NCBI GenBank assembly: GCA_000002445.1
Contig: CP000066.1
Coordinates: 608,001 to 672,000 of the forward strand
Direction: 5' to 3'
DNA length: 64,000 nucleotides
Source of the DNA: Trypanosoma brucei
Lineage: Eukaryota
The notes below the pieces were generated by a model that saw only the letters and a program-made list of their open reading frames with translations, was not told the DNA's origin and made no database searches. Shown piece after piece: positions 21,540-39,949 of the stretch. The position numbers and the translations under genes were made by a program. The stretch's first letter is position 1; the number at the start of each line of letters is the position of its first letter.

Positions 21540-23197
21540 GCGGTGAAGGAAATATGAGAGTGTTATCAGGAGCCAACAGAATTTGTTTCTGAACTTTACC
21601 TTCCCTTCCTCTTTATTATTTCCCCTTATTTCAGTGATGATTCTGCTGCCGTCGCATTGTCCCACCCGCTACGTTCAATTATTTAGTAAATAGTTGGGAA
21701 GGGTGTCCACGTTTTTTTTTCAAGTTCTTTTTTTTTTTTTGGAACTTCCGGTCATATCCGAAATGGGCAGGGAGGTAGAAAGAGGAGGAAAGAGCAATAT
21801 AAACTTGGTTCCAGTCTGCGTTGCGTGAAATCCCCACGTTTCGAAACTGAAATAATATGTTCGAATGTTATGCTTAATAGTAACAATCACAATAATAATA
21901 ATAATACGTCTCACATCATCTTTCTTTCTTTCTTTATATTTAAATTTTTATTTGACAAAGAAAAAAGGATTATGGGTTTATAGTTAGGAAAAAATGACTA
22001 TATTTCCCCAATAACTGAGTTAAGGCGCATACCGCAGCAACATGCGAAACCCAAGTTTCAGTACCACTCAAATATACATTCATTAGTTAAAAATTTTTTT
22101 GCTTGCGGAATGAAGCTCGTTAGCTCACGCAAAAGGTGATGAAGTGGAACCGGCAATTTTTACAAAAAAAAAGCGTTATTGCTTTAATGACACAAGGGTG
22201 GGTATTCTTCGTAAAAACATAACGGCGTGATATGGGGTCAAATATGCGGACAGCCGCATATTTTAATTTTCGCACATGAAAAAAGCTCACCCGCAGCCAC
22301 ATCTCACTAGGGAAAGTTAGGAAGGGTAAAGTGCTCCCGCAAACGATGTGACGGAAGGATCAGAAATGATGCATTTGAAGATGGGGGCTGCCGGATTTTA
22401 TTATTTTGGGCCGGGGGAATACTCTTGCAAATGTGTGGAACGGGGGAAAAGGCAACACGAGGGGAGGGTTTTTTTTTAAAAAAAAGTGTCCGGGGAACAG
22501 GAATTTAATACGCTGTGCGGAGCATGGTGAAATTGGCAGAGGATGGTTTCATGGGAAGGACAGAGGTAGAATTCGGGCAAAACTGCTTGGAAGAAACTAA
22601 GCGAGGGTGCAATTTGTTAGAAATATCTAAATAAAGCGAACGTGGCGGATTGGGGGAAAGGGCGAGAGGAAACGCAAGAAACGCGAGCGCTTCTGTCAAA
22701 TACGGAAATACAGGAAATTGGAAGCAGGGCCAAGTTATCCGGTCAGATGCATAAAGACGCAACTCCCTCGTAATAATCCTCTGGAGAATACCATTAGGAA
22801 GTTTTATTTTAAAAAAAAAAAACTTTCGAAGTTCAACGCAAGATTCTTCGGAAGTACCGCAAAACTAAAACCGTGCCTACACTCGCTCCAGTCGACAAGA
22901 CGCTTTTAGCTAGTTTCTCAGTTGAGGTTGCACCTTTTGCTCCCAAGCATACTTGTTGTTTTGCTTTATCTGAAGAGATATAAAAAAAATACCACGCATC
23001 CGCAAAATGCGTCTGAACCAAACCGATCTTTTATGTATCGTATCAACTAGCCGATGAGGTGCGTGAGGAAACTTCCTTCATAGAATTGCTAAAACAACAG
23101 GTGTGTGGGGAGGAAGAAAGTGTTGTATAACAGTTTTGCATCGTTAAGACTCCGTGGGCACGTACCTGAACCAAACGTTAGGATTTAAGGGGTGTGC
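21540..23197. other. convergent strand-switch region (termination zone between plus and minus polycistronic units)
   Basis: The last plus-strand gene stops at 21539. The first minus-strand gene ends at 23198. No long ORFs between them. Contains the left inverted repeat. Confidence 0.5.
22153..22389. repeat. inverted repeat, left arm (IR-L), about 237 bp
   Basis: The reverse complement of 31157-31389 aligns along the whole length at roughly 90 percent identity. Example block: gcagccacatctcactagggaaagttaggaagggtaaagtgctcccgcaaacgatgtgacggaaggatcagaaatgatgcatttgaagatgg. Confidence 0.85.
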
Positions 23198-24385
23198 TTA
23201 AAAAACTAGAAAAAATAACTTAAGTGGTTCTGGGAGGCGGTTTACACCGCTGGAGGTGAATAATCTTCGTATGGAAGTCACGCATTCGCTCCCATTCCAT
23301 TCGCACCGCGGCTTCTGTTCCAGGCAAGTTACCTTGCTTTCGAAACCAGAGCATCCTCTTTTAGAGGACGTAGTCGGTTTTTTCCCCTCCAGTCCATTAT
23401 CAGTATTATTGGATTCGTCCTTTTCTTTTTCGCTTGAATTGTTTGGGACAGGTCGTGCCCCCCTCTTCAATTCGTTTACTTGGTTTTGAATCTTCACGAG
23501 GTACTCCTCGGCTTGGATCAGTTCTTCCATTCTGGTTGCAGCTTCTCGCAACTTTAGATACCACGAAATTGTTGGCGTGCTTTCATTGACGTGTCTTGGG
23601 AGATATATTACGCATCGGCCATGGCCAACCTCGGTGCTTCCGTCGCAGCCGTTGTGTAAGTCGGCGCCGCGCGCGCCCAGTAAGTTTCGTGAATCCGATG
23701 AAGAGTCCGGTATTTCCTGGAGTTCGCCAAGGAAGAAAGCGACCGCCTCTGAGAGCGCTTGAAGCGGCCGAGTTTTCTCTCTCCTCACGTTGCTGCACTT
23801 GGGATGGAGCAAATTCCAGTGATCAGGAGAATTTCTCTGGGGTACCCATGATCCTACATAAGTGGTGTTGCATCCATCACAGCAAACCGCGCTGCCGCCT
23901 TTGCCTTCGCTGGATGCTGCACAGATGCACAGTAAATCAAGCGCCAGCGCATCACCCGCTTTATTTCCGGGCTGGCCGCCAGCTCTTCCACATAACTCCG
24001 ACCTCCCACCCCGCGTGCGCCCGACCACCACCTGTTTATGACCGTTGCCGTACAGCGCTTCTGTTAAATTTTTTCTGATAGCTGATAAGGCCCGGCCGTT
24101 CCATAAATCACCGTTCTCTTCCTTATATGTTTTCGCTTTTAGTTTAAGTTCCTCAAGTTTTTTAACATTTTCTTCGGGCGCTTCGGCCTCTCCCTGAATT
24201 TCGTCTTCTGTTTCCTTAACCTTGCGCTCCAGATCCTCCGGTGTTTGTGTATCCAGCGCAAGATTTACAAAACCACACAGCGCTTCGAATTCCTTTCCAT
24301 TCACAATGTTGTTTTCATGCGCCTTTGAATTGACGCAGATATGTTGCAGCGTTACCACCGCAACAAACACGATGTAACTCCTCAT
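23198..24385 (-). CDS. VSG-family surface glycoprotein (type-B-like N-terminal domain, VSG-like Cys-rich C-terminal domain, GPI signal)
   Basis: Start moved to ATG 24385 (MRSYIVFVAVVTLQHICVNS signal peptide). The ORF-track start 24553 adds an unlikely 56-aa leader. Internal ALALDLLCICA motif is shared with gene 29733-30845. C-terminus CSGFESKVTCLEQKPRCEWNGSECVTS resembles VSG C-terminal CKWE-type motifs. Hydrophobic tail LPEPLKLFFLVF. Confidence 0.6.
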   Translation of the reverse strand: MRSYIVFVAVVTLQHICVNSKAHENNIVNGKEFEALCGFVNLALDTQTPEDLERKVKETEDEIQGEAEAPEENVKKLEELKLKAKTYKEENGDLWNGRALSAIRKNLTEALYGNGHKQVVVGRTRGGRSELCGRAGGQPGNKAGDALALDLLCICAASSEGKGGSAVCCDGCNTTYVGSWVPQRNSPDHWNLLHPKCSNVRREKTRPLQALSEAVAFFLGELQEIPDSSSDSRNLLGARGADLHNGCDGSTEVGHGRCVIYLPRHVNESTPTISWYLKLREAATRMEELIQAEEYLVKIQNQVNELKRGARPVPNNSSEKEKDESNNTDNGLEGKKPTTSSKRGCSGFESKVTCLEQKPRCEWNGSECVTSIRRLFTSSGVNRLPEPLKLFFLVF

Positions 24386-24831
24386 CCCCAACAATTTCGT
24401 ATATGCCTTTTTGTTCACAATGATGTCACCTGTCTCCCCAGAAAATTCGAAAGATGACGTACCAAACTTAGCGAAAAATACACACATACCGCGTAGGTGA
24501 GGATCATGACGAATAAAAAGCTCTCTCGGCTTCTCTCCCCAGCACACACACAAAAAATTGTTACATAACGTTTCAGCTCCCTTGAGAAGTCATAGCATCA
24601 CAAGAGAGCTCCACATGGAAGCCACCGCTGCTATCTCGATAGCAGCATCAAAAAGCCAGACACAAATTCCAAAAAAAGAAGGTGATACCACCTTAATTAT
24701 TCATCCAAAGAAAAACGAATTCATATGCGATTGTTAATAAACCCACATATTGTTAAAATGAAACACACGTACACATAAAAGCAAAATATAAAAAAGATAC
24801 TGCACGACAATGTTGGTAGCGTACCAGTAAA

Positions 24832-26202
24832 CTAAGACATACAAAAAAGGGATAGAATCATTAATGTAAAAATATCAGTTGTTATATCTATATAGTTGAA
24901 TCCATTATTATTTACTTCAGCATTGCCACCTTCACCATCATCCTGACCTCGGTTACTTCGCCATAGCTCAGCATCACCACCTAGCTTCACCTCAAGAAAT
25001 ATTTCCTCTGCCTCATGTTGGTATTCTTCCAATTCGTGAAGATGACTGTCAGACTCTTTGGCATACTTTGCCATTTCTTGTAGTTGCTCGGTGGCGTTAG
25101 TAAGATGGTTGTACCAAGGGATCCCACCATTTTCAAGTGTGTAGTTGTAGCTGACACATGTGAATCCAGCAGTATGACCCGTGCAGGTGCGATTCTCGTT
25201 GTTTAATGTTTTCACATAACCAAGAATACCCTTCACCTGATACTTATCCTGTTCCATTTCCACTAACGCATCGAACTGAGCTAGCGCACTCTTTAAGGTT
25301 TTCACATTAGATGCAATATTCTTGTACACGCAAGCTTTACTAATCACATCCCATGCCTCAGTATGGTTGTATTTTATATTTTCAGGCTTGCAGGTATTAT
25401 AGTTGCTCGGACAATACTCAGCCATCATAGTCCAACTACCATTTTTAGGTCTCCTTATTGCATCCTTACAAGGACAGTCATATCCACTGTATATGTTTTC
25501 ACTACTTGAGCCAGTATCCATTTGGTATACGCGTGTCTGTCGCTCTTCCTTCTTTTTTTCTATAGCCTCTCCCACACATAGGCAAAAGAAGTCATTAATT
25601 AGTGTCTTTCCAACTAGCTTGTCTCCGTAAGAACCACAGCTTGCGTCCGCATTGTAGACACTATTGAACAACAGTGATTTGTTTCCCCTCATGGCTTCCT
25701 CCAGAGTTTTATTCTCATTTCTTGCCACATCCACAGCGTCGCCATACACAGCCCTCAGCATATTTTCTTCAGCAGAGCGACTTGCATTCAAGGCTTTTGT
25801 CCTATTCACCTCTATCTGCTCCTTAAGCTTTTTCGCCTTCTCAAATAGTTTCTTCATCTCCTGATATGCTGTCGTGCTGTTAGATGAATTGTTCGAGCCC
25901 TTATTGCCACCAGCAGCTTCTGCCTCACTGACCATTTCCTCCAAATTCTTCAGAATCTCTCCTTCCTTCTCACGATTCTTAAAGGAGGGTTGCGGGGCCT
26001 CTGCTTGCGTGATTCGGTAAATCTTGCACAGTGTTTCGAACTCACCAACGTTGTGATGTTTTTCATCTGCATCGACGGTCTCCATAATCCTATCCCAGTC
26101 AAGCATATCAGTTCTCCATCGATATTCTGCCATATCACCCTGAGAGGAAGGAGATAAAACAACCACAAGCATCCCAACGGCAAACACTGTTTCGTGTCTC
26201 AT
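24832..26202 (-). CDS. VSG-related surface glycoprotein (B-type N-terminal domain-like)
   Basis: Start moved to ATG 26202 (MRHETVFAVGMLVVVLSPSSQG signal peptide). Long alpha-helical Ala/Glu/Lys-rich N-domain. Cys pattern FFCLCVGEAI, DCPCKD, YCPSNYNTCK. Many NxS/T sites. Short hydrophobic C-terminus (IFTLMILSLFCMS). Confidence 0.55.
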   Translation of the reverse strand: MRHETVFAVGMLVVVLSPSSQGDMAEYRWRTDMLDWDRIMETVDADEKHHNVGEFETLCKIYRITQAEAPQPSFKNREKEGEILKNLEEMVSEAEAAGGNKGSNNSSNSTTAYQEMKKLFEKAKKLKEQIEVNRTKALNASRSAEENMLRAVYGDAVDVARNENKTLEEAMRGNKSLLFNSVYNADASCGSYGDKLVGKTLINDFFCLCVGEAIEKKKEERQTRVYQMDTGSSSENIYSGYDCPCKDAIRRPKNGSWTMMAEYCPSNYNTCKPENIKYNHTEAWDVISKACVYKNIASNVKTLKSALAQFDALVEMEQDKYQVKGILGYVKTLNNENRTCTGHTAGFTCVSYNYTLENGGIPWYNHLTNATEQLQEMAKYAKESDSHLHELEEYQHEAEEIFLEVKLGGDAELWRSNRGQDDGEGGNAEVNNNGFNYIDITTDIFTLMILSLFCMS

Positions 26203-27418: not shown

Positions 27419-28393
27419 TCAGATGGTAAAATTAGTACTCTTCATATTATCAATGTTATTCGTGCTGAACTGCAGCGAAGTGAAATTCCTATGGATATCG
27501 TTGAAGTAGCTCTGCAGTAAAGTGATATTGGCCATCATATCCAGGAGTTCAGGAGGTGCTTTGCCAGAAGTAAAAGGTTCGATAAGAGGGTCAAATATCT
27601 CCTCCACGTAAATTTGGAGCTGAAAAAAAGCGGGGCCGTTCTCACGCCAGTTTATTAAGCCAGTTGAATTCTTCACCGCACCACCCTTATATAAGTTGTC
27701 ACGCGGTAAGTTCAAGCATTTGCTCACAGATCCAGATCCAGTTAAAACATCAATTTGAAGGCAACCTCCCCTGTATTTTTGGAGAGTGATCTCGTTCACA
27801 CCGGTTAATAAAGGACATGTCTGATCAACACATACGACTGGGAACCCCCTGACACCTTTCAGCGCTCCTTTCTTGCACTCGGGTCCTTCATCATTGCTCA
27901 CGGCTTTAACGTCATCCCACACAGTTCTTGCGATCTCAGCAATAGCTGTGTAATATTTATTTGATGTTATGAGGGCACCAGGTATTGCATTCCTCACTGC
28001 CCTCACGCTTTCATTAACCTCAGCAAATAATCCACCTGCCTTAGCAACAAGATCTCCCATTGCATTTCCATAAGATATAAGGTTTTCCAATTTATCATTT
28101 TCCTCTACCATTACACTGCTAATAACACTCAAATATATAACACTTTCGCCTGTTTTCCCTTCCATGTCATCCAGCATACGAGACGCATTTGCGTATACCT
28201 CCTCATTCAAAAAAAGCTTCCTCTCGCCATCTGTATATAGTTTGTTTAAGGCATCTGAAAGACATTTGAGGTAACATACGGATTGGTTTAAGTTTGTGCC
28301 CTTGTCATCATCTATTGATGTGCAATAACTTTCTTCTGCCACTCCAAAGGTCACAAAAAAAAAAACAACCAATCCTACAATCTTAATTTTCAT
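27419..28393 (-). CDS. ESAG/VSG-related secreted glycoprotein lacking C-terminal anchor signal
   Basis: Start moved to ATG 28393 (MKIKIVGLVVFFFVTFGVA signal peptide). An alternative ATG at 28579 is also possible. Cys-containing N-terminal region (SYCTSIDDD, VCYLKCL). At least 8 NxS/T sequons. Ends in a hydrophilic NMKSTNFTI with no GPI/TM tail. Confidence 0.45.
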   Translation of the reverse strand: MKIKIVGLVVFFFVTFGVAEESYCTSIDDDKGTNLNQSVCYLKCLSDALNKLYTDGERKLFLNEEVYANASRMLDDMEGKTGESVIYLSVISSVMVEENDKLENLISYGNAMGDLVAKAGGLFAEVNESVRAVRNAIPGALITSNKYYTAIAEIARTVWDDVKAVSNDEGPECKKGALKGVRGFPVVCVDQTCPLLTGVNEITLQKYRGGCLQIDVLTGSGSVSKCLNLPRDNLYKGGAVKNSTGLINWRENGPAFFQLQIYVEEIFDPLIEPFTSGKAPPELLDMMANITLLQSYFNDIHRNFTSLQFSTNNIDNMKSTNFTI

Positions 28394-29732
28394 TACTAAA
28401 CAATTACATTTGACAAGAGGAATGAAAAAAACACATACACATCGCCACACAAAACCAATGAGTGTCACAAATGTATAATCCCAATACCCACAGTGTTTCA
28501 TACACATAACATTGAACCACATAATAAATATTGCTACAAGAGACGTTAAACCCAACAGAATATGATGCTCCTTCTTCATTGTCAATCCTCCTTCATCCGT
28601 CACATCGTCATCATCCTCACTTCCATTGCATTTCCTCCCACTCTCCTTGAAATATTTACACACAATCAGGTTTTGAGATAGCAACTCTTTCAGTTTATTT
28701 TCATGCCCAGTAAAGGAAACAAAGATCAGCTCTACATCACCGTACCGTTTGGTGATACTCCCATATCATTTTGTGACTAAATTGTAGCTGTTGATAAGCT
28801 AGGGCACTATATCACTGAACATTAGGGTGACAACACCATCCCTATGGTAGTTAACGAAACCTCCGGTAGTTCCCACTATGAAAGTTCCAACTCCTGCAAC
28901 CGCAGCACCTTACGTACCCATGATCCAGCAATTGATGGTTGCTATCGGTTGTAAATTCAATTGGTTGATTAGCTGTGTAATTATTTGTGCAACCAATATA
29001 CCATCATTTGGCATATCTTCAGTGAAAGAGAAATTACACATGTTAGGAGATTCCGCTACTCTGTGCTTATGTTAATTACTTTAACATTCATTTCCTGAAG
29101 AGGCGGCTTTCTCCTTCACAAGACAACAACCATTTGCTTTAGCATTTGTTTGTCTAAAAACCATTACCAGATCCTTCAACACTTGTCCAATTGACAATGA
29201 TGCATTCACAACATGATTAGACACTCTTATTTCGTTTAAATAACTTGCGTCTATTACCTGTCCAGGTTCATCTGTATTCTTCATTATATTCCTCAACCTC
29301 TACGTTATCGCTTTCCATGCCCTTCCCTTTACATCATAGTGATATCACCACATCAGAAACCCATTCAACATTTACATAGCCTCCGATTGTCATCTTCAAA
29401 ACACTAACACTCACAGTCCCCAAGGCACAACTGAAGCTAAATACCGTTTGTGTCCCTTGACGGACACCTCAACTCAGTGCCAGGGTCTAGCACCCTGCTC
29501 AGGTAAGAGAAAAAAAGCGACAGCATCCTACTCCATTAGGATTAAGTTCAGACGGAAAATCCAAGGCTTCAATTCACAATGGAGCACACACCGTAAACGT
29601 TACAGGACAAGCATTATTCTTGGAAATAAAATAGGCACAGTTGCTGTGCCGTCAACTATACCAAAAAGAAATCCACTATTATTACCATTAGTGTTAGTAT
29701 TGGCGCAGTGGAGCCACATATGATGTTGTGTG

Positions 29733-30845
29733 TCACAGCAGAAAGAGCAAAAACACCACCAACGGTGAAATAGCCTGAGCGACATTTTTCGGCCGAAGTG
29801 GCTGGTGTGAGGGTTGGAGTGAGTGATTGGTTCTTGTTTCACCAAGAGGAACCAAGTCAGGGTCGGTGGTGCTTTGTGTAGCTGCACTTGTGTTGGGTGC
29901 CATTGGTGTATTGCCATCAGTTGCCGTTGAGGGAGATTGCTTGGGACGTTGCTCGGGAGATGGATCCTCCTCTGGTTGTACCTTTATTTCCGGGGGTGAC
30001 TGACGGGGTGGTGAGCCTCTTGTTGGAATAGGCGGTTCCCTCTGCTCCTGCGGTGGCATTTTGTTGACTTTTTGTGCATTTTCCTTTTTAGGGGTTTTCA
30101 ACCTTTTGACAAGGTCTTCTAGTTGTGTCAACCACTCAATTTTGACTTGATTTGCTCCTCCGCCTTCCATTTTATAGAAAACACATGGGGCGTTATTTGC
30201 ACTGCCAGACCCTCCACAAGATTTGGTGATCGGCTCCCGCCCGTGTCCGAAGCGCTTAGTTTCCCTCTCTGTTGTTTTCTCGGTCATTTCATTCAGTTTT
30301 TTCCTAAGATTTTGGACGGTTGTGGTTAATGATTCAAAACCGATGCTTTCTATATTAATTTGCTCGGTGCACTTTTGCTTGATTTTCCCCCAACTTTCTT
30401 CGGCTCTGTCCTTGTTTCCCCAACTTTCGGCAGGATCATACCACGCATTGGCTTCGTAGCACAGATTTTTTTGGTGGTCACCGTTTCCGCTGGGTCTGCA
30501 AAGACACAGAAGGTCCAGCGCTAACGCTTTGCCTCCAAATCCGCCTCCGAATATGCTGGTGTAGCCACAGTCAGCTTCTCGTTTTTCTTTTCCAGTCCAA
30601 TTAAGGGAGCCATCGCTGTCACTACCGTACAAGACTTTCATCGCGGAACTGTCGAAGTCGTTTGCGACCTCGGCTGTGAGTCTCTCTTTCTCCACCCACT
30701 CGTGTATTCTCAGTGTCAAATTTAAGAAACTGCAGAGCACGTCAAACTCCCTTTGGTTCAACGTATTTTCTATCTCTGCGGCCGGCACGCTCAACCCTGC
30801 CGCCTTCCAAACCACGCACAGCATAGTCACTAATATTTTCCACAT
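29733..30845 (-). CDS. VSG-family surface glycoprotein with Pro/Ser/Thr-rich stalk and GPI signal
   Basis: Start moved to ATG 30845 (MWKILVTMLCVVWKAAGLS signal peptide). ALALDLLCLC motif, paralogous to gene 23198-24385. C-terminal 100 aa Pro/Gln/Ser/Thr-rich. Hydrophobic tail AISPLVVFLLFLL. Confidence 0.55.
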   Translation of the reverse strand: MWKILVTMLCVVWKAAGLSVPAAEIENTLNQREFDVLCSFLNLTLRIHEWVEKERLTAEVANDFDSSAMKVLYGSDSDGSLNWTGKEKREADCGYTSIFGGGFGGKALALDLLCLCRPSGNGDHQKNLCYEANAWYDPAESWGNKDRAEESWGKIKQKCTEQINIESIGFESLTTTVQNLRKKLNEMTEKTTERETKRFGHGREPITKSCGGSGSANNAPCVFYKMEGGGANQVKIEWLTQLEDLVKRLKTPKKENAQKVNKMPPQEQREPPIPTRGSPPRQSPPEIKVQPEEDPSPEQRPKQSPSTATDGNTPMAPNTSAATQSTTDPDLVPLGETRTNHSLQPSHQPLRPKNVAQAISPLVVFLLFLL

Positions 30846-31156: not shown

Positions 31157-31389
31157 GGGCCTCCATCTTCAAATGCATCATTTCTGATCCTTCCGTCACA
31201 TTGTTTGCGGGAGCACTTTACCCTTCCTAACTTTCCCTAGTGAGATGTGGCTGCAGGAGAGCTTTTTCATATGTGGAAATAAAACCACGCGGCTATCCGC
31301 ATATTTGACCCCATATCACGCCGTTATGTTTTTACGAAGAATACCCACCCTTGTGCCATTAAAGCAATAACGTTTTTTTTGTAAAAATG
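31157..31389. repeat. inverted repeat, right arm (IR-R), about 233 bp
   Basis: Reverse complement of IR-L (22153-22389). Arms are separated by 8767 bp. Confidence 0.85.
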
Positions 31390-32906: not shown

Positions 32907-33563
32907 TCAGAGAAATAGGAGCAACACTGGAAAAAAAACCTGGTAGATAGGTGGTTGCAGCGGCTGAGATTTGCTTTTCTGCTGTTCCGGGGGGCGAACA
33001 GAGGAAGTTCCGTTACGTTCGCTGCCAAAAGTGGAGGAGACAGTACCTTTATTTTCGGATTTGAGGTGGCCGTCATCCTTAGAGGGTGAACCATTTTCCT
33101 CCTTTTTAGGGGTCGCAGAAACCGAACTACCATTTCTCACCGGCTCTTCAGAAAGCACAGGGCCGTACTCGGATGATGGAGGTGCCTCACCTTTGTTAGA
33201 GGCCTCGTCGCGACTTGAGTCTCCACCCGCTTCCACAACTGGTGAAGCGACTTCGGGTGTTGAGAGCCCAAGGAACTCACTAACCTTTGCGGTTACACAT
33301 CTGTGCGGTGAAAAGCAGGTCAATCCCCCGCCGCAAACGGTACAGTTCCCCTCTGCAGGTGCGCCCGAAGGAACCCTGTGTGCCAGGGTGCAGTTTTTCT
33401 GTGCATACGTCATGAGACGATTCTCCTCGTTTCTAGTTATACGGCTTTCAATTCCCAATACTTCCGTGCACTTACCCACATATCCAATTCTTCCCTCCCA
33501 TACATTCTCACACATGGCCACACGTTGAACGAAACCGAACAGTATTATTGGTAGGCACAGCAT
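32907..33563 (-). CDS. array copy 1: small Cys-rich / Ser-rich putatively GPI-anchored surface protein (218 aa)
   Basis: Signal peptide MLCLPIILFGFVQRVAMC. Seven Cys in the first 85 aa (NCTVCGGGLTCFSPHRC). Ser/Pro/Glu-rich low-complexity middle. Hydrophobic C-terminus VFFPVLLLFL. Confidence 0.55.
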   Translation of the reverse strand: MLCLPIILFGFVQRVAMCENVWEGRIGYVGKCTEVLGIESRITRNEENRLMTYAQKNCTLAHRVPSGAPAEGNCTVCGGGLTCFSPHRCVTAKVSEFLGLSTPEVASPVVEAGGDSSRDEASNKGEAPPSSEYGPVLSEEPVRNGSSVSATPKKEENGSPSKDDGHLKSENKGTVSSTFGSERNGTSSVRPPEQQKSKSQPLQPPIYQVFFPVLLLFL

Positions 33564-34420
33564 TTCAGAATTCTACACTGCCTGAGTTGCTCCAACACCA
33601 GCGCAAAGAAAAATAATAAACACCTCATACATAACATATATCATACAGTTATGTGTGTTTATACTTTGTTTCAAAATATATCGTATTGAATACAAATAGC
33701 AGACACATGACACGAAAAAATCCCATTAAGCGTTAACATGACATAAAATACCCTATTCAGATGCAACCGAACAAAAGGGTCGTATCCTTTCATTTTCTAC
33801 GCATATCACTTTTGATCCAAGATACGGTTAAACAGGTGACAAACATAATGCAGTACGTACTAAAACAAAAAACACTTTTTACTTGAATCCCTATATCAAC
33901 TCACAATCGACAACACATATTCGACATTAACTAACTCCATCATTAAAATACACTCCACTCTAACACAGAAACAACCCAATGTGATGCTTAGTTACCATAA
34001 CAAAGGAATACGCCTCACGTTTCACAAACATGGGTACGAAGTCATTCCACCCTAGTACACACATTTGGTCACCTCACATTAATAACCTGTTTCTTAAACG
34101 CGTAAGGCGTTGTTTAAATTTCACGTTGTCATATAATATAATATTCCATACATAATTCTGCCTGCAGAGTCCACACCATATCGACAGCTGCCTTCATCTT
34201 ACTTCCAAACAAACGCCTAAAACTCTTCTAAAGGAGTCTGGCGTAGCATAAAGATATACAATGACGCAAACACCAAAGAAGCTAGATTGAAACACAGGTG
34301 GGGAGGAACTATCGGCATCTGGGGATGAATGACTTCATTCAAATGGGCATGCACGAATGCAGCACCTTTGAAGGGACAAAAACTCGTTTTAGAAAGAAAA
34401 CTGACAAATAATTTGTACTC

Positions 34421-35077
34421 TCAGAGAAATAGGAGCAACACTGAGGAAAACACCTGGTAGATAGGTGGTTGCAGCGGCTGAGATTTGCTTGTCTGCTGTT
34501 CCGGGGGGCGAACAGAGGAAGTTCCGTTACGTTCGCTGCCAAAAGTGGAGGAGACAGTACCTTTATTTTCGGATTTGAGGTGGCCGTCATCCTTAGAGGG
34601 TGAACCATTTTCCTCCTTTTTAGGGGTCGCAGAAACCGAACTACCATTTCTCACCGGCTCTTCAGAAAGCACAGGGCCGTACTCGGATGATGGAGGTGCC
34701 TCACCTTTGTTAGAGGCATCGTCGCGACTTGAGTCTCCACCCGCTTCCACAACTGGTGAAGCGACTTCGGGTGTTGAGAGCCCAAGGAACTCACTAACCT
34801 TTGCGGTTACACATCTGTGCGGTGAAAAGCAGGTCAATCCCCCGCCGCAAACGGTACAGTTCCCCTCTGCAGGTGCGCCCGAAGGAACCCTGTGTGCCAG
34901 GGTGCAGTTTTTCTGTGCATACGTCATGAGACGATTCTCCTCGTTTCTAGTTATACGGCTTTCAATTCCCAATACTTCCGTGCACTTACCCACATATCCA
35001 ATTCTTCCCTCCCATACATTCTCACACATGGCCACACGTTGAACGAAACCGAACAGTATTATTGGTAGGCACAGCAT
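34421..35077 (-). CDS. array copy 2 (218 aa)
   Basis: Same architecture. Differs from copy 1 at a few residues (RDDASN, QQTSKS, VFSSVLLLFL). Confidence 0.55.
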   Translation of the reverse strand: MLCLPIILFGFVQRVAMCENVWEGRIGYVGKCTEVLGIESRITRNEENRLMTYAQKNCTLAHRVPSGAPAEGNCTVCGGGLTCFSPHRCVTAKVSEFLGLSTPEVASPVVEAGGDSSRDDASNKGEAPPSSEYGPVLSEEPVRNGSSVSATPKKEENGSPSKDDGHLKSENKGTVSSTFGSERNGTSSVRPPEQQTSKSQPLQPPIYQVFSSVLLLFL

Positions 35078-35934
35078 TTCAGAATTCTACACTGCCTGAG
35101 TTGCTCCAACACCAGCGCAAAGAAAAATAATAAACACCTCATACATAACATATATCATACAGTTATGTGTGTTTATACTTTGTTTCAAAATATATCGTAT
35201 TGAATACAAATAGCAGACACATGACACGAAAAAATCCCATTAAGCGTTAACATGACATAAAATACCCTATTCAGATGCAACCGAACAAAAGGGTCGTATC
35301 CTTTCATTTTCTACGCATATCACTTTTGATCCAAGATACGGTTAAACAGGTGACAAACATAATGCAGTACGTACTAAAACAAAAAACACTTTTTACTTGA
35401 ATCCCTATATCAACTCACAATCGACAACACATATTCGACATTAACTAACTCCATCATTAAAATACACTCCACTCTAACACAGAAACAACCCAATGTGATG
35501 CTTAGTTACCATAACAAAGGAATACGCCTCACGTTTCACAAACATGGGTACGAAGTCATTCCACCCTAGTACACACATTTGGTCACCTCACATTAATAAC
35601 CTGTTTCTTAAACGCGTAAGGCGTTGTTTAAATTTCACGTTGTCATATAATATAATATTCCATACATAATTCTGCCTGCAGAGTCCACACCATATCGACA
35701 GCTGCCTTCATCTTACTTCCAAACAAACGCCTAAAACTCTTCTAAAGGAGTCTGGCGTAGCATAAAGATATACAATGACGCAAACACCAAAGAAGCTAGA
35801 TTGAAACACAGGTGGGGAGGAACTATCGGCATCTGGGGATGAATGACTTCATTCAAATGGGCATGCACGAATGCAGCACCTTTGAAGGGACAAAAACTCG
35901 TTTTAGAAAGAAAACTGACAAATAATTTGTACTC

Positions 35935-36591
35935 TCAGAGAAATAGGAGCAACACTGAGGAAAACACCTGGTAGATAGGTGGTTGCAGCGGCTGAGATTT
36001 GCTTGTCTGCTGTTCCGGGGGGCGAACAGAGGAAGTTCCGTTACGTTCGCTGCCAAAAGTGGAGGAGACAGTACCTTTATTTTCGGATTTGAGGTGGCCG
36101 TCATCCTTAGAGGGTGAACCATTTTCCTCCTTTTTAGGGGTCGCAGAAACCGAACTACCATTTCTCACCGGCTCTTCAGAAAGCACAGGGCCGTACTCGG
36201 ATGATGGAGGTGCCTCACCTTTGTTAGAGGCATCGTCGCGACTTGAGTCTCCACCCGCTTCCACAACTGGTGAAGCGACTTCGGGTGTTGAGAGCCCAAG
36301 GAACTCACTAACCTTTGCGGTTACACATCTGTGCGGTGAAAAGCAGGTCAATCCCCCGCCACAAACGGTACAGTTCCCCTCTGCAGGTGCGCCCGAAGGA
36401 ACCCTGTGTGCCAGGGTGCAGTTTTTCTGTGCATACGTCATGAGACGATTCTCCTCGTTTCTAGTTATACGGCTTTCAATTCCCAATACTTCCGTGCACT
36501 TACCCACATATCCAATTCTTCCCTCCCATACATTCTCACACATGGCCACACGTTGAACGAAACCGAACAGTATTATTGGTAGGCACAGCAT
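35935..36591 (-). CDS. array copy 3 (218 aa, protein identical to copy 2)
   Basis: Identical translation to copy 2. Confidence 0.55.
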   Translation of the reverse strand: MLCLPIILFGFVQRVAMCENVWEGRIGYVGKCTEVLGIESRITRNEENRLMTYAQKNCTLAHRVPSGAPAEGNCTVCGGGLTCFSPHRCVTAKVSEFLGLSTPEVASPVVEAGGDSSRDDASNKGEAPPSSEYGPVLSEEPVRNGSSVSATPKKEENGSPSKDDGHLKSENKGTVSSTFGSERNGTSSVRPPEQQTSKSQPLQPPIYQVFSSVLLLFL

Positions 36592-37448
36592 TTCAGAATT
36601 CTACACTGCCTGAGTTGCTCCAACACCAGCGCAAAGAAAAATAATAAACACCTCATACATAACATATATCATACAGTTATGTGTGTTTATACTTTGTTTC
36701 AAAATATATCGTATTGAATACAAATAGCAGACACATGACACGAAAAAATCCCATTAAGCGTTAACATGACATAAAATACCCTATTCAGATGCAACCGAAC
36801 AAAAGGGTCGTATCCTTTCGTTTTCTACACATATCACTTTTGATCCAAGATACGGTTAAACAGGTGACAAACATAATGCAGTACGTACTAAAACAAAAAA
36901 CACTTTTTACTTGAATCCCTATATCAACTCACAATCGACAACACATATTCGACATTAACTAACTCCATCATTAAAATACACTCCACTCTAACACAGCAAC
37001 AACCCAATGTGATGCTTAGTTACCATAACAAAGGAATACGCCTCACGTTTCACAAACATGGGTACGAAGTCATTCCACCCTAGTACACACATTTGGTCAC
37101 CTCACATTAATAACCTGTTTCTTAAACGCGTAAGGCGTTGTTTAAATTTCACGTTGTCATATAATATAATATTCCATACATAATTCTGCCTGCAGAGTCC
37201 ACACCATATCGACAGCTGCCTTCATCTTACTTCCAAACAAACGCCTAAAACTCTTCTAAAGGAGTCTGGCGTAGCATAAAGATATACAATGACGCAAACA
37301 CCAAAGAAGCTAGATTGAAACACAGGTGGGGAGGAACTATCGGCATCTGGGGATGAATGACTTCATTCAAATGGGCATGCACGAATGCAGCACCTTTGAA
37401 GGGACAAAAACTCGTTTTAGAAAGAAAACTGACAAATAATTTGTACTC

Positions 37449-38123
37449 TCAGAGAAATAGGAGCAACACTGGAAAAAAAACCTGGTAGATAGGTGGTTGC
37501 AGCGGCTGAGATTTGCTTTTCTGCTGTTCCGGGGGGCGAACAGAGGAAGTTCCGTTACGTTCGCTGCCAAAAGTGGAGGAGACAGTACCTTTATTTTCGG
37601 ATTTGAGGTGGCCGTCATCCTTAGAGGGTGAACCATTTTCCTCCTTTTTAGGGGTCGCAGAAACCGAACTACCATTTCTCACCGGCTCTTCAGAAAGCAC
37701 AGGGCCGTACTCGGATGATGGAGGTGCCTCACCTTTGTTAGAGGCCTCGTCGCGACTTGAGTCTCCACCCGCTTCCACAACTGGTGAAGCGACTGCGGGT
37801 GTTGGGAGCCCAAGGAACTCACTAACCTTTGCAGTGACACATCTATAATTGAAAGGACAACGCAAGGTTCCCCCGCCACAAACGGTACAGTTCCCGTCAG
37901 TGGTTGCGCCAGATGGTACGCTTCGGATGGGAGTGCAGTTCGCTTCCGCATACTTCACGAGACGATTCTCTTCTGCTACGCCCGCTGGAGCCTTAATTTT
38001 CAGCAAATCCGTACACATATCCACAACTCCAACTCGCGTTCCCCATCCCTTCCCATAAGTAGCAACAATTTGAACCAATCCCGCGAACAGGGTTAATACA
38101 CAGACACACACAGGTCTCGTCAT
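37449..38123 (-). CDS. array copy 4: paralog with divergent N-terminal Cys domain, conserved stalk and tail (about 224 aa)
   Basis: Start moved to ATG 38123 (MTRPVCVCVLTLFAGLVQIVA signal peptide). Conserved NCTVCGGG..RC..RCVTAKVSEFLGL core. The C-terminal 120 aa match copy 1 variants (RDEASN, QQKSKS, VFFPVLLLFL). Confidence 0.5.
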   Translation of the reverse strand: MTRPVCVCVLTLFAGLVQIVATYGKGWGTRVGVVDMCTDLLKIKAPAGVAEENRLVKYAEANCTPIRSVPSGATTDGNCTVCGGGTLRCPFNYRCVTAKVSEFLGLPTPAVASPVVEAGGDSSRDEASNKGEAPPSSEYGPVLSEEPVRNGSSVSATPKKEENGSPSKDDGHLKSENKGTVSSTFGSERNGTSSVRPPEQQKSKSQPLQPPIYQVFFPVLLLFL

Positions 38124-39031
38124 TAATCTTTTACTAACATAACAATAAAAGCAAAAAAACTTCTTTGCAGAGCAATTAACTCGCTTTCTCTCATGTTTAA
38201 ACATTGTCAAGTTACCTTTTGTTTAATATACAGAGCCAGTTAACCACTCAGAAAACAACCAGTGAGTATAATCAGCGTCCACAATACTTATCCGTATGGG
38301 AAGAAATGAAATATGAAGTTACGTCTTTTAAAATCTTTATCAAAAGCAGCAGCCAAGCGACCGGAGACTCACATTTATCAAGTGCGAGTAGGGGGCATCT
38401 GTGGTTCAATAACATAAAAACACATGCAGTAACAAGTTTTCGCAGATAAATATTATGGAGTACCACCTATATAAGTCCAAGTCCACACAAAAAAAACCCA
38501 AGCAAAAGCAAATACACAGTAAAGAAATAATTACAAACACATTTGATAGCACCGTCTGTTGATAGCAAATACTTAAACAGCGAAGAAGAAAGACGTTCAA
38601 AGCATTACAAAACACATCGTGGAGCAGTTCTGTAGAAACGATTACAAATGGGAAATAACCAACTCCCACGAAACAGTACATCACTGTAGCCAGTCCATCA
38701 AGAAAAATTGGCAGCGTCTCGGCGCGTGATTCAACTCTTTTCGAACGCTAGACAGCATCCACAACACTAAGCAGTTAGGTACAAATATAGATCACTACAT
38801 AGCAAAAGCAAAATGCGGTAAGTACCGCAAAGGGGTCCCCCATCCTTACGCTGTTCTATTATTTATTTCGCTTCTTCCACTTTATTGCAGTCTACAATTA
38901 TAGGCGCTTTCTCCCATCATATATTAAAGCATAATAGCGCGAGAAAGAACAAAAGGTCATAGATTAACGTATCGAGCTAGTGTGAGGGGTGATGCTCTGA
39001 GGCAGTATTTGTATCTAGTTTAGTGACGGAT

Positions 39032-39949
39032 TTATCCGGTGATAAAGCATACAATTGCGACAAGGAGGTTCTGTATCGCTCCATATCTCACGTTGTTTCC
39101 TTTTTTGTTTTCTGGTTTGCGGTCGATTCTTCCTGTGTTTGATACAATTCCTGCACCTGCTGCAACTGTATCATCCCGTCCGCGCACTGGTTCCTCCCTT
39201 CCTGGGTCTGCATCCTGTTTCCCATTGGTCGTCGTGCCATCTTCTGCAGCATCGCGCTGGTGATCATTCACTGTACCTTTTTCTGGTGAAGATTCCCCTC
39301 GAGGGTGAGTATGCTTCCCTCCCTGAGTTGCTCCTCCCTTTTCTGGTTCCTTTCGGGTCAAGCCCTCACCTCCAGCTCCGTCCTTTTTCCCCGAAGCTCC
39401 CCGCTTCTCCCCAGCAGTTCCCCGCTTTTCCCCCGGACTTTGCTGATCTTCCTTTGGAGTTTCCTCACCTTCCCCCGAAGCTTCCTGCTCCTCCCCCTCA
39501 CTTTTGGGAGCACTGCTCGCTGTCTCTTCGTCGTCCGAACCGCTACCCTTAGTTGTGTCTGAGGGTCCCTGTTCAGACGCGGCAGACTGCTCTACCGTCT
39601 CTTCTGTAGGGACCTGTTGTGTTATACTCCGCCAGTCGGAGTCGGAGCATGTTGTGGCATTGAGTGAATCCTCGCTTGAGTCCTCGTCCGTGCAATTAAG
39701 GGTGTGCAGCCGGTGGCCGTTTCCATGAAAAATGGCGTACACTTTGAGCTTCAGCTTGAAATATCCCTGTGGTTGTCCCTTTCCGATCAGAAGCACAGGA
39801 GTGTTTGTGCAGTTGGCAGGGTGCCACTTGCCCTTCCATCTGCACAGCGCCCCTTCCGCTTCATTATGCAGACAGTCACACCTGAAAGTCACTGCTGAAG
39901 ATCCCAAAACTACACAACTTGCTAGAAACAACGCTGTAAATGTCAACAT
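39032..39949 (-). CDS. acidic Ser/Glu/Gly-rich secreted or membrane-anchored protein with N-terminal Cys-containing domain
   Basis: ATG confirmed at 39949. Signal peptide MLTFTALFLASCVVLGSSA. Cys motif FRCDCLHNEAEGALCRW...NCTNT...LNCTDED. Long acidic low-complexity region with imperfect GEKRG(T/A)(A/S)G repeats. Hydrophobic C-terminus LLVAIVCFITG. Confidence 0.5.
   Translation of the reverse strand: MLTFTALFLASCVVLGSSAVTFRCDCLHNEAEGALCRWKGKWHPANCTNTPVLLIGKGQPQGYFKLKLKVYAIFHGNGHRLHTLNCTDEDSSEDSLNATTCSDSDWRSITQQVPTEETVEQSAASEQGPSDTTKGSGSDDEETASSAPKSEGEEQEASGEGEETPKEDQQSPGEKRGTAGEKRGASGKKDGAGGEGLTRKEPEKGGATQGGKHTHPRGESSPEKGTVNDHQRDAAEDGTTTNGKQDADPGREEPVRGRDDTVAAGAGIVSNTGRIDRKPENKKGNNVRYGAIQNLLVAIVCFITG

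What the first reader, a model, noticed from the sequence alone, without database searches (positions are those of the whole stretch)
23198..24385. Complete VSG-like gene (signal peptide, B-type N-domain, VSG-type C-terminal Cys motif, GPI tail) embedded in a chromosome-core context
Bona fide VSG architecture is expected in subtelomeric arrays. Here it lies next to PEX10, kinase, ARV1 and helicase genes. The C-terminal CxxxxxxxCEWNGSEC plus the LFFLVF tail is VSG-like. I see no 70-bp-repeat-like sequence upstream. I also do not find the conserved T. brucei VSG 3'UTR 16-mer downstream. Together these suggest a VSG-related (VR) or invariant relative rather than a switchable VSG. The ALALDLLC[IL]C motif is shared with gene 29733-30845, so the island contains at least one paralogous pair.
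Basis: partly seen in the sequence, partly recalled or inferred. Interest (0 to 1): 0.5.

Follow-up and report, generated by a model that had tools for sequence, protein, structure and literature searches.

The report
Known chromosome-internal VSG-related gene
The ORF is the already-annotated Trypanosoma brucei gene Tb927.3.2500, a non-switching "VSG-related" cousin of the parasite's coat protein; it is the last gene of a transcription unit in a locus already published as silenced by early transcription termination, so the finding is correct but ordinary.

Summary
Window 23198-24385 (-) is an intact 395-codon ORF, identical to T. brucei brucei TREU927 Tb927.3.2500 on chromosome 3. It has a B-type VSG N-domain (Pfam VSG_B, E 4e-45). 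The AlphaFold model's best PDB matches are all class-B VSGs. One VSG-like 4-Cys C-terminal module is present but scores below the Pfam threshold. The hydrophobic tail is not the canonical VSG GPI signal. Neither a 70-bp repeat nor the VSG 3'UTR 16-mer is present. Housekeeping genes flank the island.

The gene groups with genes annotated "VSG-related" (VR) (NJ bootstrap 81-97%). It has a 74% paralogue on chromosome 5, Tb927.5.660. Syntenic orthologues are about 99% identical in T. b. gambiense and about 98% in T. equiperdum and EATRO1125.

It is the last gene of a minus-strand transcription unit, next to a convergent strand-switch region. Upstream lie ESAG2, ESAG1 and VR genes and a small surface-protein array. 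Published data (Reynolds 2016) place base J and H3.V at this cluster (PTU 13). Expression there is very low and rises when both marks are lost.

Novelty: already known. Function is still unknown. Minor extras: a 233-nt inverted repeat bracketing the ESAG/VR block, and mosaic conservation with the paralogue.

The parts
23198..24385 (-). CDS of Tb927.3.2500 (395 aa plus stop), a VSG-related (VR-clade) B-type VSG-family protein
   Evidence: ORF and translation. Exact match to XP_843844.1. Pfam VSG_B E 4.4e-45.
24323..24385 (-). Predicted N-terminal signal peptide (residues 1 to about 21, MRSYIVFVAVVTLQHICVNSK)
   Evidence: Hydrophobic core IVFVAVVTL, mean KD 3.22. Residues 1-30 are 100% identical in paralogue Tb927.5.660. 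Low-pLDDT helix 3-16. Not checked with SignalP.
23456..24322 (-). B-type VSG N-terminal domain (residues about 22-310)
   Evidence: Pfam VSG_B. PDB sequence hit to mVSG1954 8b3w, E 1.3e-10. AF2 pLDDT mostly 83-97. Foldseek top 21 hits are all class-B VSGs.
23357..23455 (-). Low-complexity, probably disordered linker (residues about 311-343, N/S/E/K-rich, with NxS/T sites)
   Evidence: pLDDT below 50 for residues 327-342. NxS/T sites at 315, 316 and 326.
23282..23353 (-). Single 4-Cys C-terminal module: C345-x8-C354-x6-C361-EWNGSE-C368
   Evidence: Same spacing as the last CTD module of canonical VSGs and of VR relatives. Pfam Trypan_glycop_C is sub-threshold at 17.4 bits, profile positions 30-85. 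Model pLDDT 74-90.
23201..23281 (-). 27-residue C-terminal tail VTSIRRLFTSSGVNRLPEPLKLFFLVF: a putative, non-canonical (VR-type) GPI-addition signal
   Evidence: A short (about 8 aa) hydrophobic end. The tail type is shared with VR relatives P0012 and P0013, not with canonical VSGs. The paralogue's tail is GPI-positive by BigPI and FragAnchor. TREU927 carries E386 where the orthologue and the paralogue carry A.
24485..24487 (-). Alternative in-frame upstream ATG (gives the 429-aa annotation used in other strains)
   Evidence: Sequence. 429-aa orthologue records.
24386..24831 (-). 446-bp upstream intergenic region, without 70-bp repeats
   Evidence: Sequence read. BLAST with a published 77-bp repeat unit gives no hit longer than 18 nt. 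TRF negative.
21540..23197 (.). Convergent strand-switch region and 3' flank of the gene. No VSG 16-mer, no tRNA, no Rfam match.
   Evidence: Plus-strand gene ends at 21539 and the minus-strand gene at 23198. GC-skew sign flips at about 22-24 kb..
22156..22388 (.). Arm A of a 233-nt inverted repeat, about 0.8 kb 3' of the stop codon
   Evidence: 93% identical to arm B; also present in T. b. gambiense.
31159..31388 (.). Arm B of the inverted repeat, about 0.3 kb 5' of VR gene Tb927.3.2540
24832..26202 (-). Neighbour Tb927.3.2510, an ESAG2-family (B-type VSG-derived) gene
   Evidence: Exact match to XP_843845.1, 'ESAG protein'. 65-79% identity to ESAG2/GRESAG2 proteins. Pfam VSG_B 1e-24.
27419..28393 (-). 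Neighbour Tb927.3.2520, an ESAG1-family gene (324 aa)
   Evidence: Pfam ESAG1 E 2e-114. Exact match to XP_843846.1.
29733..30845 (-). Neighbour, inferred to be Tb927.3.2540 (annotated VSG-related)
   Evidence: Pfam VSG_B 2e-27. Its T. b. gambiense orthologue P0060 is annotated VSG-related. The locus tag is inferred from gene order and accession order, since the exact-sequence look-ups of this ORF failed. Tb927.3.2540 is listed as VR in PMC2771046.
32907..38210 (-). Tandem array (period 1514 bp) of three 218-aa genes plus a divergent 4th copy, inferred to be Tb927.3.2550-2580. Each has a signal-like N-terminus and a hydrophobic tail.
   Evidence: The array is listed in PMC2854126 and PMC1855330.

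Best explanation
This is Tb927.3.2500 of T. brucei brucei TREU927 chromosome 3. It is an invariant, VR-clade member of the B-type VSG superfamily and not part of the switchable VSG archive.

Shown: the protein has a cleavable-looking signal peptide, a class-B VSG three-helix-bundle N-domain, a disordered N-glycosylatable linker and one VSG-type 4-Cys module. It ends in a VR-type hydrophobic tail.

Inferred: that tail most likely directs GPI anchoring, so the product would be a low-abundance surface or flagellar-pocket glycoprotein.

Shown: the gene is the last one of a Pol II polycistronic unit, directly abutting a convergent strand-switch region. It lacks the cis elements a VSG needs. There are no 70-bp repeats, which mediate duplicative transposition into an expression site. 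There is no 3'UTR 16-mer, which is needed for VSG-level mRNA abundance (established knowledge).

Shown in the literature for the Lister 427 orthologue: the cluster lies in chromatin marked by base J and H3.V, downstream of a PTU-internal termination site. The gene is transcribed only at about 1.6 RPKM in bloodstream forms and rises about 2.5-fold when H3.V and J are removed.

Inferred: expression is controlled mainly by regulated premature Pol II termination, and possibly relieved in stages that lack base J. The protein acts as an invariant ligand-binding or surface-interaction molecule, as other VSG-derived proteins do. Its ligand is unknown.
For: - Identity: exact match to XP_843844.1.
- Fold: Pfam VSG_B 4e-45. 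AF2 pLDDT 82, pTM 0.73. Foldseek top hits are mVSG1954, VSG11, VSG615 and VSG3 (E 3e-9 to 3e-4), against ISG65 at 4e-3 and TfR at 0.07.
- VR clade: the four nearest clusters outside its own are three annotated 'VSG-related, putative' plus one annotated 'VSG, putative'. NJ bootstrap for the clade is 81-97%. There is a full-length match, including CTD and tail, to P0013 (E 1e-44).
- Missing VSG elements.
- Core and strand-switch context.
- Conservation: the locus is colinear in T. b. gambiense. The gene is about 98.9% nt identical with an intact ORF and dN/dS 0.47, against a genome mean of 99.2% for coding sequence.
- Regulation: Reynolds 2016 S4 Table, PTU 13. Tb427.03.2500 RPKM is 1.59 (WT), 1.29 (+DMOG), 2.61 (H3.V KO) and 3.92 (KO+DMOG), flagged H3.V yes and J yes. 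The neighbours Tb427.03.2530, 2540, 2580 and 2590 are derepressed too. The paper's Fig 3 (cSSR 3.3, chr 3, 617-670 kb) probably shows this same region, but no gene identifiers link the two.
- Surface location of the class: VR proteins are enriched in the bloodstream surface proteome, and the GPI signal of ESP5 (Tb927.5.291b, listed as a VR in PMC2771046) works experimentally.
- GPI signal: the paralogue's tail is GPI-positive by two predictors.
Against: - No direct protein-level, localisation or function data exist for this gene. It was absent from the held supplements of the surface proteome paper and from the GPI-candidate lists of Savage 2012.
- The hydrophobic tail is short, and TREU927 has a charged E386 within it, so GPI addition is unproven.
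- The start codon is ambiguous. A 429-aa reading would bury the signal sequence behind a 34-aa extension.
- Purifying selection is only weakly demonstrated: 13 substitutions in total.
- Derepression on J/H3.V loss is modest for this gene (about 2.5-fold) compared with its neighbours.
- GenBank and the Lister 427 annotation call it 'hypothetical protein'. I could not check whether it is in the original VR catalogue (Marcello & Barry 2007), because that paper is not in the library.
Confidence: 0.82

Rival explanations
1. It is a bona fide silent archive VSG that happens to lie in the chromosome core. It could be activated by gene conversion into an expression site, or contribute segments to mosaic VSGs.
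For: The architecture is complete and VSG-like. The EATRO1125 orthologue of this gene and the Lister 427 orthologue of its chromosome-5 paralogue are listed as 'VSG 1125.4916' and 'VSG 746' in VSGnome-type catalogues. PMC2854126 notes that canonical VSGs can be imported into core islands.
Against: There are no 70-bp repeats and no 16-mer. The GPI signal is non-canonical and the CTD is sub-threshold. The representatives ranking just below the VR clusters, several of them named VSG, share at most about 29% identity. The gene is held in synteny at about 99% identity across subspecies. It clusters with VR genes.
Confidence: 0.03
2. It is a functionless relic: an intact-looking but effectively silent gene that persists in repressed chromatin at a transcription-unit end and drifts neutrally.
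For: Transcript level is about 1.6 RPKM in bloodstream forms. dN/dS is 0.47 from only 5 synonymous and 8 non-synonymous changes, which does not clearly differ from weak constraint. TREU927 has an A-to-E change in the hydrophobic tail. The surrounding island contains an ESAG pseudogene, Tb427.03.2530.
Against: The ORF is intact in TREU927, EATRO1125, DAL972 and T. equiperdum, and so is the chromosome-5 paralogue. All family-invariant Cys, Trp and Gly positions are kept. The fold prediction is confident. The ends of the two paralogues are kept 93-100% identical while the middle diverges, which is not a neutral-decay pattern. Other VR proteins are translated and surface-associated.
Confidence: 0.12
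3. It belongs functionally with ESAG2 or Fam1-type B-VSG derivatives, that is, it is a member of one of those named families rather than of the VR group.
For: All are B-type VSG derivatives found at strand-switch regions or expression sites. An ESAG2 gene is its immediate neighbour.
Against: It is only 23% identical to ESAG2 (E 8e-6), whereas ESAG2 members are 65-79% identical to each other. In the tree the ESAG2 neighbour falls far from the target. Fam1 is described as lacking the typical CTD, while the target keeps a 4-Cys module.
Confidence: 0.03

Closest known systems
VSG-related (VR) genes of T. brucei (Marcello & Barry 2007 class). Nearest members: Tb927.5.660 (74% identity) and the clusters P0010 (chr 11), P0011 (chr 2), P0012 (chr 3) and P0013 (chr 9).
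   Same: B-type VSG N-domain. One 4-Cys module followed by a long tail that ends in a short hydrophobic run (PLxLFFLxx type). Chromosome-internal position at a strand-switch region. No 70-bp repeats. Conserved between subspecies.
   Different: GenBank and the Lister 427 annotation call it 'hypothetical protein' rather than VR. It is shorter (395 aa) than most relatives (420-490 aa). It is only 30-35% identical to VR genes other than its chromosome-5 paralogue.
Canonical class-B VSGs (mVSG1954 8b3w, VSG3 6elc, VSG11, VSG615)
   Same: N-domain fold and the conserved Cys/Trp/Gly framework. The last CTD Cys module has the pattern C-x8-C-x6-C-x-W-x4-C.
   Different: 15-22% identity in the structural alignments, with TM-scores of only 0.39-0.60. 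No second CTD module. No 17- or 23-residue canonical GPI signal (..KDSS/ILV..KKFALSVVSAAF..LLF). No 70-bp repeats and no 16-mer. Transcribed from a Pol II core locus rather than a telomeric Pol I site.
ESAG2 / GRESAG2 (for example its neighbour Tb927.3.2510)
   Same: B-type VSG-derived, with a signal peptide and a hydrophobic C-terminus. Found outside the switchable archive.
   Different: 23% identity. ESAG2 has no 4-Cys CTD module. They are separate clades.
Genes silenced by base J/H3.V PTU-internal termination (Reynolds 2016; Kieft 2020)
   Same: Terminal position in a PTU before a convergent SSR. The Lister 427 orthologue is listed in the paper's table of regulated genes (PTU 13) and flagged adjacent to J and H3.V. 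The paper's Fig 3 example, cSSR 3.3 on chromosome 3, probably shows this region.
   Different: This gene responds less (about 2.5-fold) than its neighbours Tb427.03.2540 (24-fold) and 2580 (20-fold).

Membership tests
Canonical (switchable) T. brucei VSG | A- or B-type VSG N-terminal domain | tested here: met
   Pfam VSG_B E 4.4e-45. Class-B VSG structures are the best fold matches.
Canonical (switchable) T. brucei VSG | VSG C-terminal domain (Pfam PF10659, 4 or 8 Cys) above threshold | tested here: not met
   17.4 bits against a cut-off of 21.4, covering profile positions 30-85 of 104 only. Two canonical controls score 86 bits over 1-104. One 4-Cys module is present.
Canonical (switchable) T. 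brucei VSG | Conserved GPI signal of 17 or 23 residues, with omega = S/D/N, omega+2 = S and omega+7 = K (as stated in PMC11298655) | tested here: not met
   The tail after the last Cys is 27 residues (VTSIRRLFTSSGVNRLPEPLKLFFLVF). The best 17-residue reading (omega S378) has omega+2 = G and omega+7 = P.
Canonical (switchable) T. brucei VSG | 70-bp repeats upstream | tested here: not met
   No HSP longer than 18 nt to a published 77-bp unit anywhere in the window. TRF negative. The upstream spacer is only 446 bp.
Canonical (switchable) T. brucei VSG | Conserved 3'UTR 16-mer TGATATATTTTAACAC | tested here: not met
No match with up to 3 mismatches in 21540-23197.
Canonical (switchable) T. brucei VSG | Subtelomeric, expression-site or minichromosomal location | tested here: not met
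   Flanked by PEX-RING, VPS9, kinase, ARV1, helicase and PGAP1 genes. Located on chromosome 3; the published Fig 3 region (617-670 kb of 1.65 Mb) probably covers it.
VSG-related (VR) genes | VSG-like protein that is structurally distinct from canonical VSGs and groups with other VR genes | tested here: met
   Nearest clusters are annotated VSG-related. NJ clade bootstrap is 81-97%. The CTD and tail type are shared.
VSG-related (VR) genes | Chromosome-internal, typically at strand-switch regions | tested here: met
   It is the last gene before the convergent SSR at 21540-23197. The definition is from PMC2771046.
VSG-related (VR) genes | No 70-bp repeats | tested here: met
VSG-related (VR) genes | Restricted to T. 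brucei (Trypanozoon) | tested here: inconclusive
VSG-related (VR) genes | Listed in the original VR catalogue (Marcello & Barry 2007) | not testable with these tools
   The paper is not in the library. GenBank and Tb427 annotate the gene as 'hypothetical protein'.
ESAG2 / GRESAG2 | High identity to ESAG2 proteins (members are 65-79% identical to each other) | tested here: not met
   23% identity, E 8e-6 to ESAG2 P0176.
Fam1 (Tb927.6.1310-type B-VSG derivative) | B-type VSG homologue lacking the typical CTD; tandem array on chromosome 6 | not tested
   No identified Fam1 sequence was compared. The description is from PMC3605285. The target retains a 4-Cys module.
Base J/H3.V-silenced PTU-terminal genes | Located at the 3' end of a PTU, downstream of J/H3.V, and derepressed on their loss | not testable with these tools
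   The position is met by sequence. The marks and the derepression are taken from published tables for Tb427.03.2500; they were not re-derived here.

The most novel reading that the evidence does not exclude
The 8.8-kb block bracketed by the 233-nt inverted repeat may be a chromosome-internal relic, or a precursor, of the distal end of a VSG expression site. In transcription order the block holds VR 2540, an annotated ESAG pseudogene (not located in the window), ESAG1, ESAG2 and the VSG-like terminal gene. On this reading it is kept off by the same J/H3.V chromatin that silences telomeric VSGs. Its terminal VSG-like gene would be switched on when base J is absent, in insect stages, or when termination fails. 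A read-through transcript could fold the two arms into a long hairpin that feeds the siRNA pathway known to act at convergent strand-switch regions.
Probability: 0.08. Interest if true: 0.5.

Novelty: already known. Interest (0 to 1): 0.12.

Why it matters
As it stands this is a confirmation. The gene, its Pfam domain, the class it belongs to (chromosome-internal VR genes without 70-bp repeats) and the epigenetic silencing of this very cluster are all in public databases and papers.

Two small points add value. First, Tb927.3.2500 and Tb927.5.660 are annotated 'hypothetical' or 'T. brucei spp.-specific' although they clearly belong to the VR clade. Second, VR proteins remain functionally uncharacterised, even though several VSG-derived proteins act as host-ligand receptors or resistance factors (from my own knowledge: the transferrin receptor, SRA, TgsGP).

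The paralogue pair has near-identical ends and a divergent exposed middle. That makes it a tractable case for asking whether invariant VSG relatives bind host or vector ligands.

Tried and rejected
- The word-indexed homologue search found only 2-3 relatives for the target. The exhaustive representative search was needed to reach the rest of the family.
- The look-up of encoding contigs returned nothing for P0001, P0002 or the window protein itself. The T. b. gambiense locus was reached through the neighbour's orthologue P0060 instead. I could not obtain DNA for Tb927.5.660, so there is no dN/dS for the paralogue pair and no view of its genomic context.
- The afdb50 fold library was unavailable, so the published statement that VRs resemble T. 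congolense VSGs was not tested.
- There are no tRNA genes and no Rfam family in the strand-switch region, so a Pol III gene or snoRNA does not explain the inverted repeat.
- Full-text search for Tb927.3.2500 or Tb927.5.660 found no paper discussing either gene in its main text. Neither is in the held supplements of the surface-proteome paper or of the cell-surface phylome.
- A search for recent functional work on VR proteins returned nothing specific.
- The first bootstrap run had invalid distances for very divergent pairs and was repeated with a cap. Support for the VR clade fell from 97% to 81%.
- The antisense ORF 23596-24078 (+) is treated as a chance ORF inside the CDS.
- The ESAG pseudogene Tb427.03.2530 could not be located among the short ORFs at 28600-29800.
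Full report
**What is there**

Window 23198-24385 (minus strand) is an uninterrupted ORF of 395 codons. An exact-sequence look-up identifies it as XP_843844.1 / AAZ10285.1, 'hypothetical protein Tb927.3.2500' of Trypanosoma brucei brucei TREU927, on the 1.65-Mb chromosome 3. The same 90% cluster holds orthologues from EATRO1125 ('VSG 1125.4916', 98% identical), T. b. gambiense DAL972 and T. equiperdum. Those three are annotated from an upstream in-frame ATG as 429 aa. A second cluster, 74% identical, is Tb927.5.660 on chromosome 5 with its Lister 427 orthologue 'VSG 746'.

**Protein anatomy**

- N-domain. Pfam VSG_B (PF13206) matches at E 4.4e-45. The only solved structure found by sequence is metacyclic VSG1954 (8b3w, E 1.3e-10). 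An AlphaFold2 model built on a 61-sequence alignment has mean pLDDT 82 and pTM 0.73, and pLDDT is mostly 83-97 over residues 30-310. Its 21 Foldseek hits in the PDB with E <= 0.001 are all class-B VSGs (mVSG1954, VSG11, VSG615, VSG3). ISG65, the transferrin receptor, the factor H receptor and the haptoglobin-haemoglobin receptor score orders of magnitude worse.
- Signal peptide. The N-terminus MRSYIVFVAVVTLQHICVNS has a strong hydrophobic core.
- C-terminal module. After a disordered N/S/E/K-rich linker (pLDDT below 50 at residues 327-342) comes a single 4-Cys module, C345-x8-C354-x6-C361-EWNGSE-C368. Its spacing is that of the last C-terminal module of canonical VSGs, for example ..C-x8-C-x5-CKWEGETC... 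Scanned alone, the C-terminal 115 residues give only a sub-threshold, partial match to Pfam Trypan_glycop_C: 17.4 bits against a cut-off of 21.4, over profile positions 30-85 of 104. Two canonical VSG C-termini score 86 bits over the whole profile.
- Tail. What follows the last Cys is not the conserved VSG GPI signal. Per PMC11298655, that signal is 17 or 23 residues with omega S/D/N, omega+2 Ser and omega+7 Lys. Here there is a 27-residue tail ending in a hydrophobic run of about 8 residues, LKLFFLVF. This tail type is shared with the VR relatives, for example P0013..CEWNGDACVAATRRRAIRSRVNNLQTPLALFLLL.
- GPI anchoring. I could not run a GPI predictor. Savage et al. 2012 scored the paralogue Tb927.5.660 GPI-positive with both BigPI and FragAnchor. 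Its tail differs from the target's at three positions. They found no signal peptide for it, but they used its over-extended 490-aa annotation. The target is not in their lists. TREU927 carries Glu at position 386 where the orthologue and the paralogue have Ala. GPI anchoring is therefore likely but unproven.

**Missing VSG cis-elements**

- A real 77-bp '70-bp repeat' unit from the S1 Dataset of Hovel-Miner et al. 2016 gives no alignment longer than 18 nt anywhere in the 64-kb window. None meets the published criterion of >45 bp at >70% identity.
- Tandem Repeats Finder reports no array with a period near 70-77 bp.
- The spacer to the next upstream gene is only 446 bp.
- The 16-mer TGATATATTTTAACAC has no match with up to three mismatches in the 1.66 kb downstream of the stop codon.

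**Family placement**

An exhaustive HMMER search of 1.84 billion representatives finds 142 relatives, only five of them at E <= 1e-30. Apart from the gene's own cluster, those are four clusters from TREU927 chromosomes 11, 2, 3 and 9. [quoted passage not shown] In a neighbour-joining tree of 61 B-type sequences, the target, Tb927.5.660 and these four form a clade. Its bootstrap support is 97% in a first run and 81% after fixing a distance-cap problem. The target is 23% identical to ESAG2.

The two other VSG_B-domain genes of the island are only about 22% identical to the target. The shared ALALDLLC[IL]C motif sits on columns that are invariant or nearly so across the whole B-type alignment (D150, C153, C155). 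It marks the superfamily, not a local duplicate pair.

Compared with its real paralogue, the protein is a mosaic. Residues 1-30 are identical and residues 271-395 are 93-97% identical, but residues 61-270 are only 43-83% identical.

**Genomic context**

Plus-strand genes run up to 21539: a Pex2/12-RING protein, a VPS9-domain protein, a protein kinase, a PUF protein, ARV1 and a PH-domain protein. Minus-strand genes run from 64000 down to 23198, and GC skew changes sign at 22-24 kb. [quoted passage not shown]

In transcription order the minus-strand genes are:
- a DEAD-box/DDX60-like helicase and PGAP1;
- a 4.5-kb gene-free gap;
- Tb927.3.2590 (305 aa);
- a 1514-bp-period array of 218-aa predicted surface proteins;
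- the gene I take to be VR gene Tb927.3.2540;
- an ESAG1 gene, Tb927.3.2520 (Pfam ESAG1, 2e-114);
- an ESAG2-family gene, Tb927.3.2510 (65-79% identical to ESAG2/GRESAG2);
- the target.

The tags 2500, 2510, 2520 and 2590 come from exact sequence matches; 2540 and 2550-2580 are inferred from gene and accession order.

The T. b. gambiense locus is colinear over 21 kb. The target is about 98.9% identical there at the nucleotide level (5 synonymous and 8 non-synonymous changes, dN/dS 0.47, ORF intact). That is ordinary against the published genome mean of 99.2% for coding sequence.

**What the literature already says**

[quoted passage not shown] They are T. brucei-specific (PMC3605285). Non-telomeric VSG/ESAG 'islands' are a recognised feature (PMC2854126).
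- Reynolds et al. 2016 (PMC4721609) use 'cSSR 3.3', chromosome 3 at 617-670 kb, as a worked example of PTU-internal termination marked by base J and histone H3.V. That figure probably shows this region. The link rests on position only, because the figure legend gives no gene identifiers.
- Their S4 Table ties the gene itself to the mechanism. PTU 13 lists Tb427.03.2500 at RPKM 1.59 (WT), 1.29 (+DMOG), 2.61 (H3.V KO) and 3.92 (KO+DMOG), flagged as adjacent to both marks. The same PTU lists 2530 (ESAG pseudogene), 2540 (VR; 0.34 to 8.28), 2580 (0.73 to 14.6) and 2590.
- Kieft et al. 2020 link this type of silencing to the J-binding PJW/PP1 complex.
- Gadelha et al. 2015 found several VR proteins enriched in the bloodstream surface proteome. 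The held supplements do not list this gene.
- No paper in the library discusses Tb927.3.2500 in its main text.

**Most likely mechanism**

Shown here:
- the protein is a VR-clade B-type VSG-family protein;
- it lacks every element that lets a VSG be moved into, and highly expressed from, an expression site;
- its gene occupies the terminal slot of a Pol II unit.

Shown in the literature for the Lister 427 orthologue:
- the cluster lies in J/H3.V chromatin, is almost silent in bloodstream forms, and is derepressed when the marks are removed.

Inferred:
- the product is a low-abundance, GPI-anchored, invariant surface or flagellar-pocket glycoprotein;
- its output is set mainly by regulated premature termination, so it may be expressed in stages or conditions where J/H3.V-dependent termination is relaxed;
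- its role is ligand binding or surface interaction, as for other VSG-derived proteins.

Its ligand and stage of action are unknown.

**Rivals**

- A switchable archive VSG is contradicted by all the cis-element, location, conservation and phylogenetic tests.
- A drifting relic cannot be fully excluded, because expression is very low and the substitution sample is small. It fits poorly with intact ORFs in four lineages plus a paralogue, retained framework residues and the mosaic conservation.
- Membership of ESAG2 or Fam1 is not supported.

**Verdict**

Interest is low. The residual leads are the unexplained 233-nt inverted repeat that brackets the VR-ESAG1-ESAG2-VSG-like block, the expression-site-like gene content of that block, and the uncharacterised function of VR proteins.

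Noticed in passing
window 22156-22388 and 31159-31388: A 233-nt inverted repeat, 93% identical, with only two copies in the window and both arms present in T. b. gambiense. The arms bracket an 8.8-kb block holding the target, ESAG2, ESAG1 and VR gene 2540. One arm lies inside the convergent strand-switch region. There is no Rfam match. It could be the trace of a rearrangement or a long-hairpin siRNA source.
   Followed up: partly
window 24832-26202 (Tb927.3.2510, ESAG2 family) versus L001 14694-16055: The syntenic T. b. brucei and T. b. gambiense copies of this ESAG2 gene are only 72-91% identical in nucleotides (dS 0.42, dN 0.11; protein 78%), while flanking genes are about 99% identical. This suggests gene conversion from other ESAG2 copies, or very divergent alleles.
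   Followed up: partly
window 32907-38210: Three tandem 218-aa genes (period 1514 bp) plus a divergent fourth copy (251-253 aa), inferred to be Tb927.3.2550-2580. They have a signal-like N-terminus, Cys-rich head, S/P/E-rich stalk and hydrophobic tail (..QVFFPVLLLFL), and no Pfam match. Copies are 91-94% identical between subspecies. Tb427.03.2580 is derepressed about 20-fold on loss of H3.V and J.
   Followed up: partly
window 39032-39949 (Tb927.3.2590): A 305-aa predicted surface protein with a signal-like N-terminus, an acidic G/E/K-rich low-complexity middle and a hydrophobic tail. dN/dS against T. b. gambiense is 0.90 (35 non-synonymous against 12 synonymous changes), so it is evolving fast or is unconstrained.
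   Followed up: no
window 39950-44520: A 4.5-kb stretch with no ORF of 150 aa or more on the transcribed strand. It lies between the helicase gene and the first island gene, and is the likely site of the published PTU-internal J/H3.V termination peak. This cannot be tested from sequence alone.
   Followed up: no
window 24386-24640: The 5' flank of the target contains an in-frame upstream ATG (24487, giving the 429-aa annotation used in other strains) and several short out-of-frame uORF ATGs downstream of polypyrimidine tracts. The start codon and any uORF-mediated translational damping are unresolved.
   Followed up: no
target residues 1-395 versus Tb927.5.660: Mosaic conservation between the two paralogues. 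The signal peptide and the C-terminal 125 residues (last helix, linker, Cys module, tail) are 93-100% identical, while the central N-domain is 43-83% identical. This is the pattern seen among VSGs that share C-termini, here in a two-member invariant family.
   Followed up: partly
window 33668-33683, 35182-35197, 36696-36711: The only near-matches to the VSG 16-mer on the transcribed strand (CGATATATTTTGAAAC, 3 mismatches) recur once per unit of the 218-aa array, about 100 nt upstream of each start codon. They are probably chance matches carried by the repeat.
   Followed up: no
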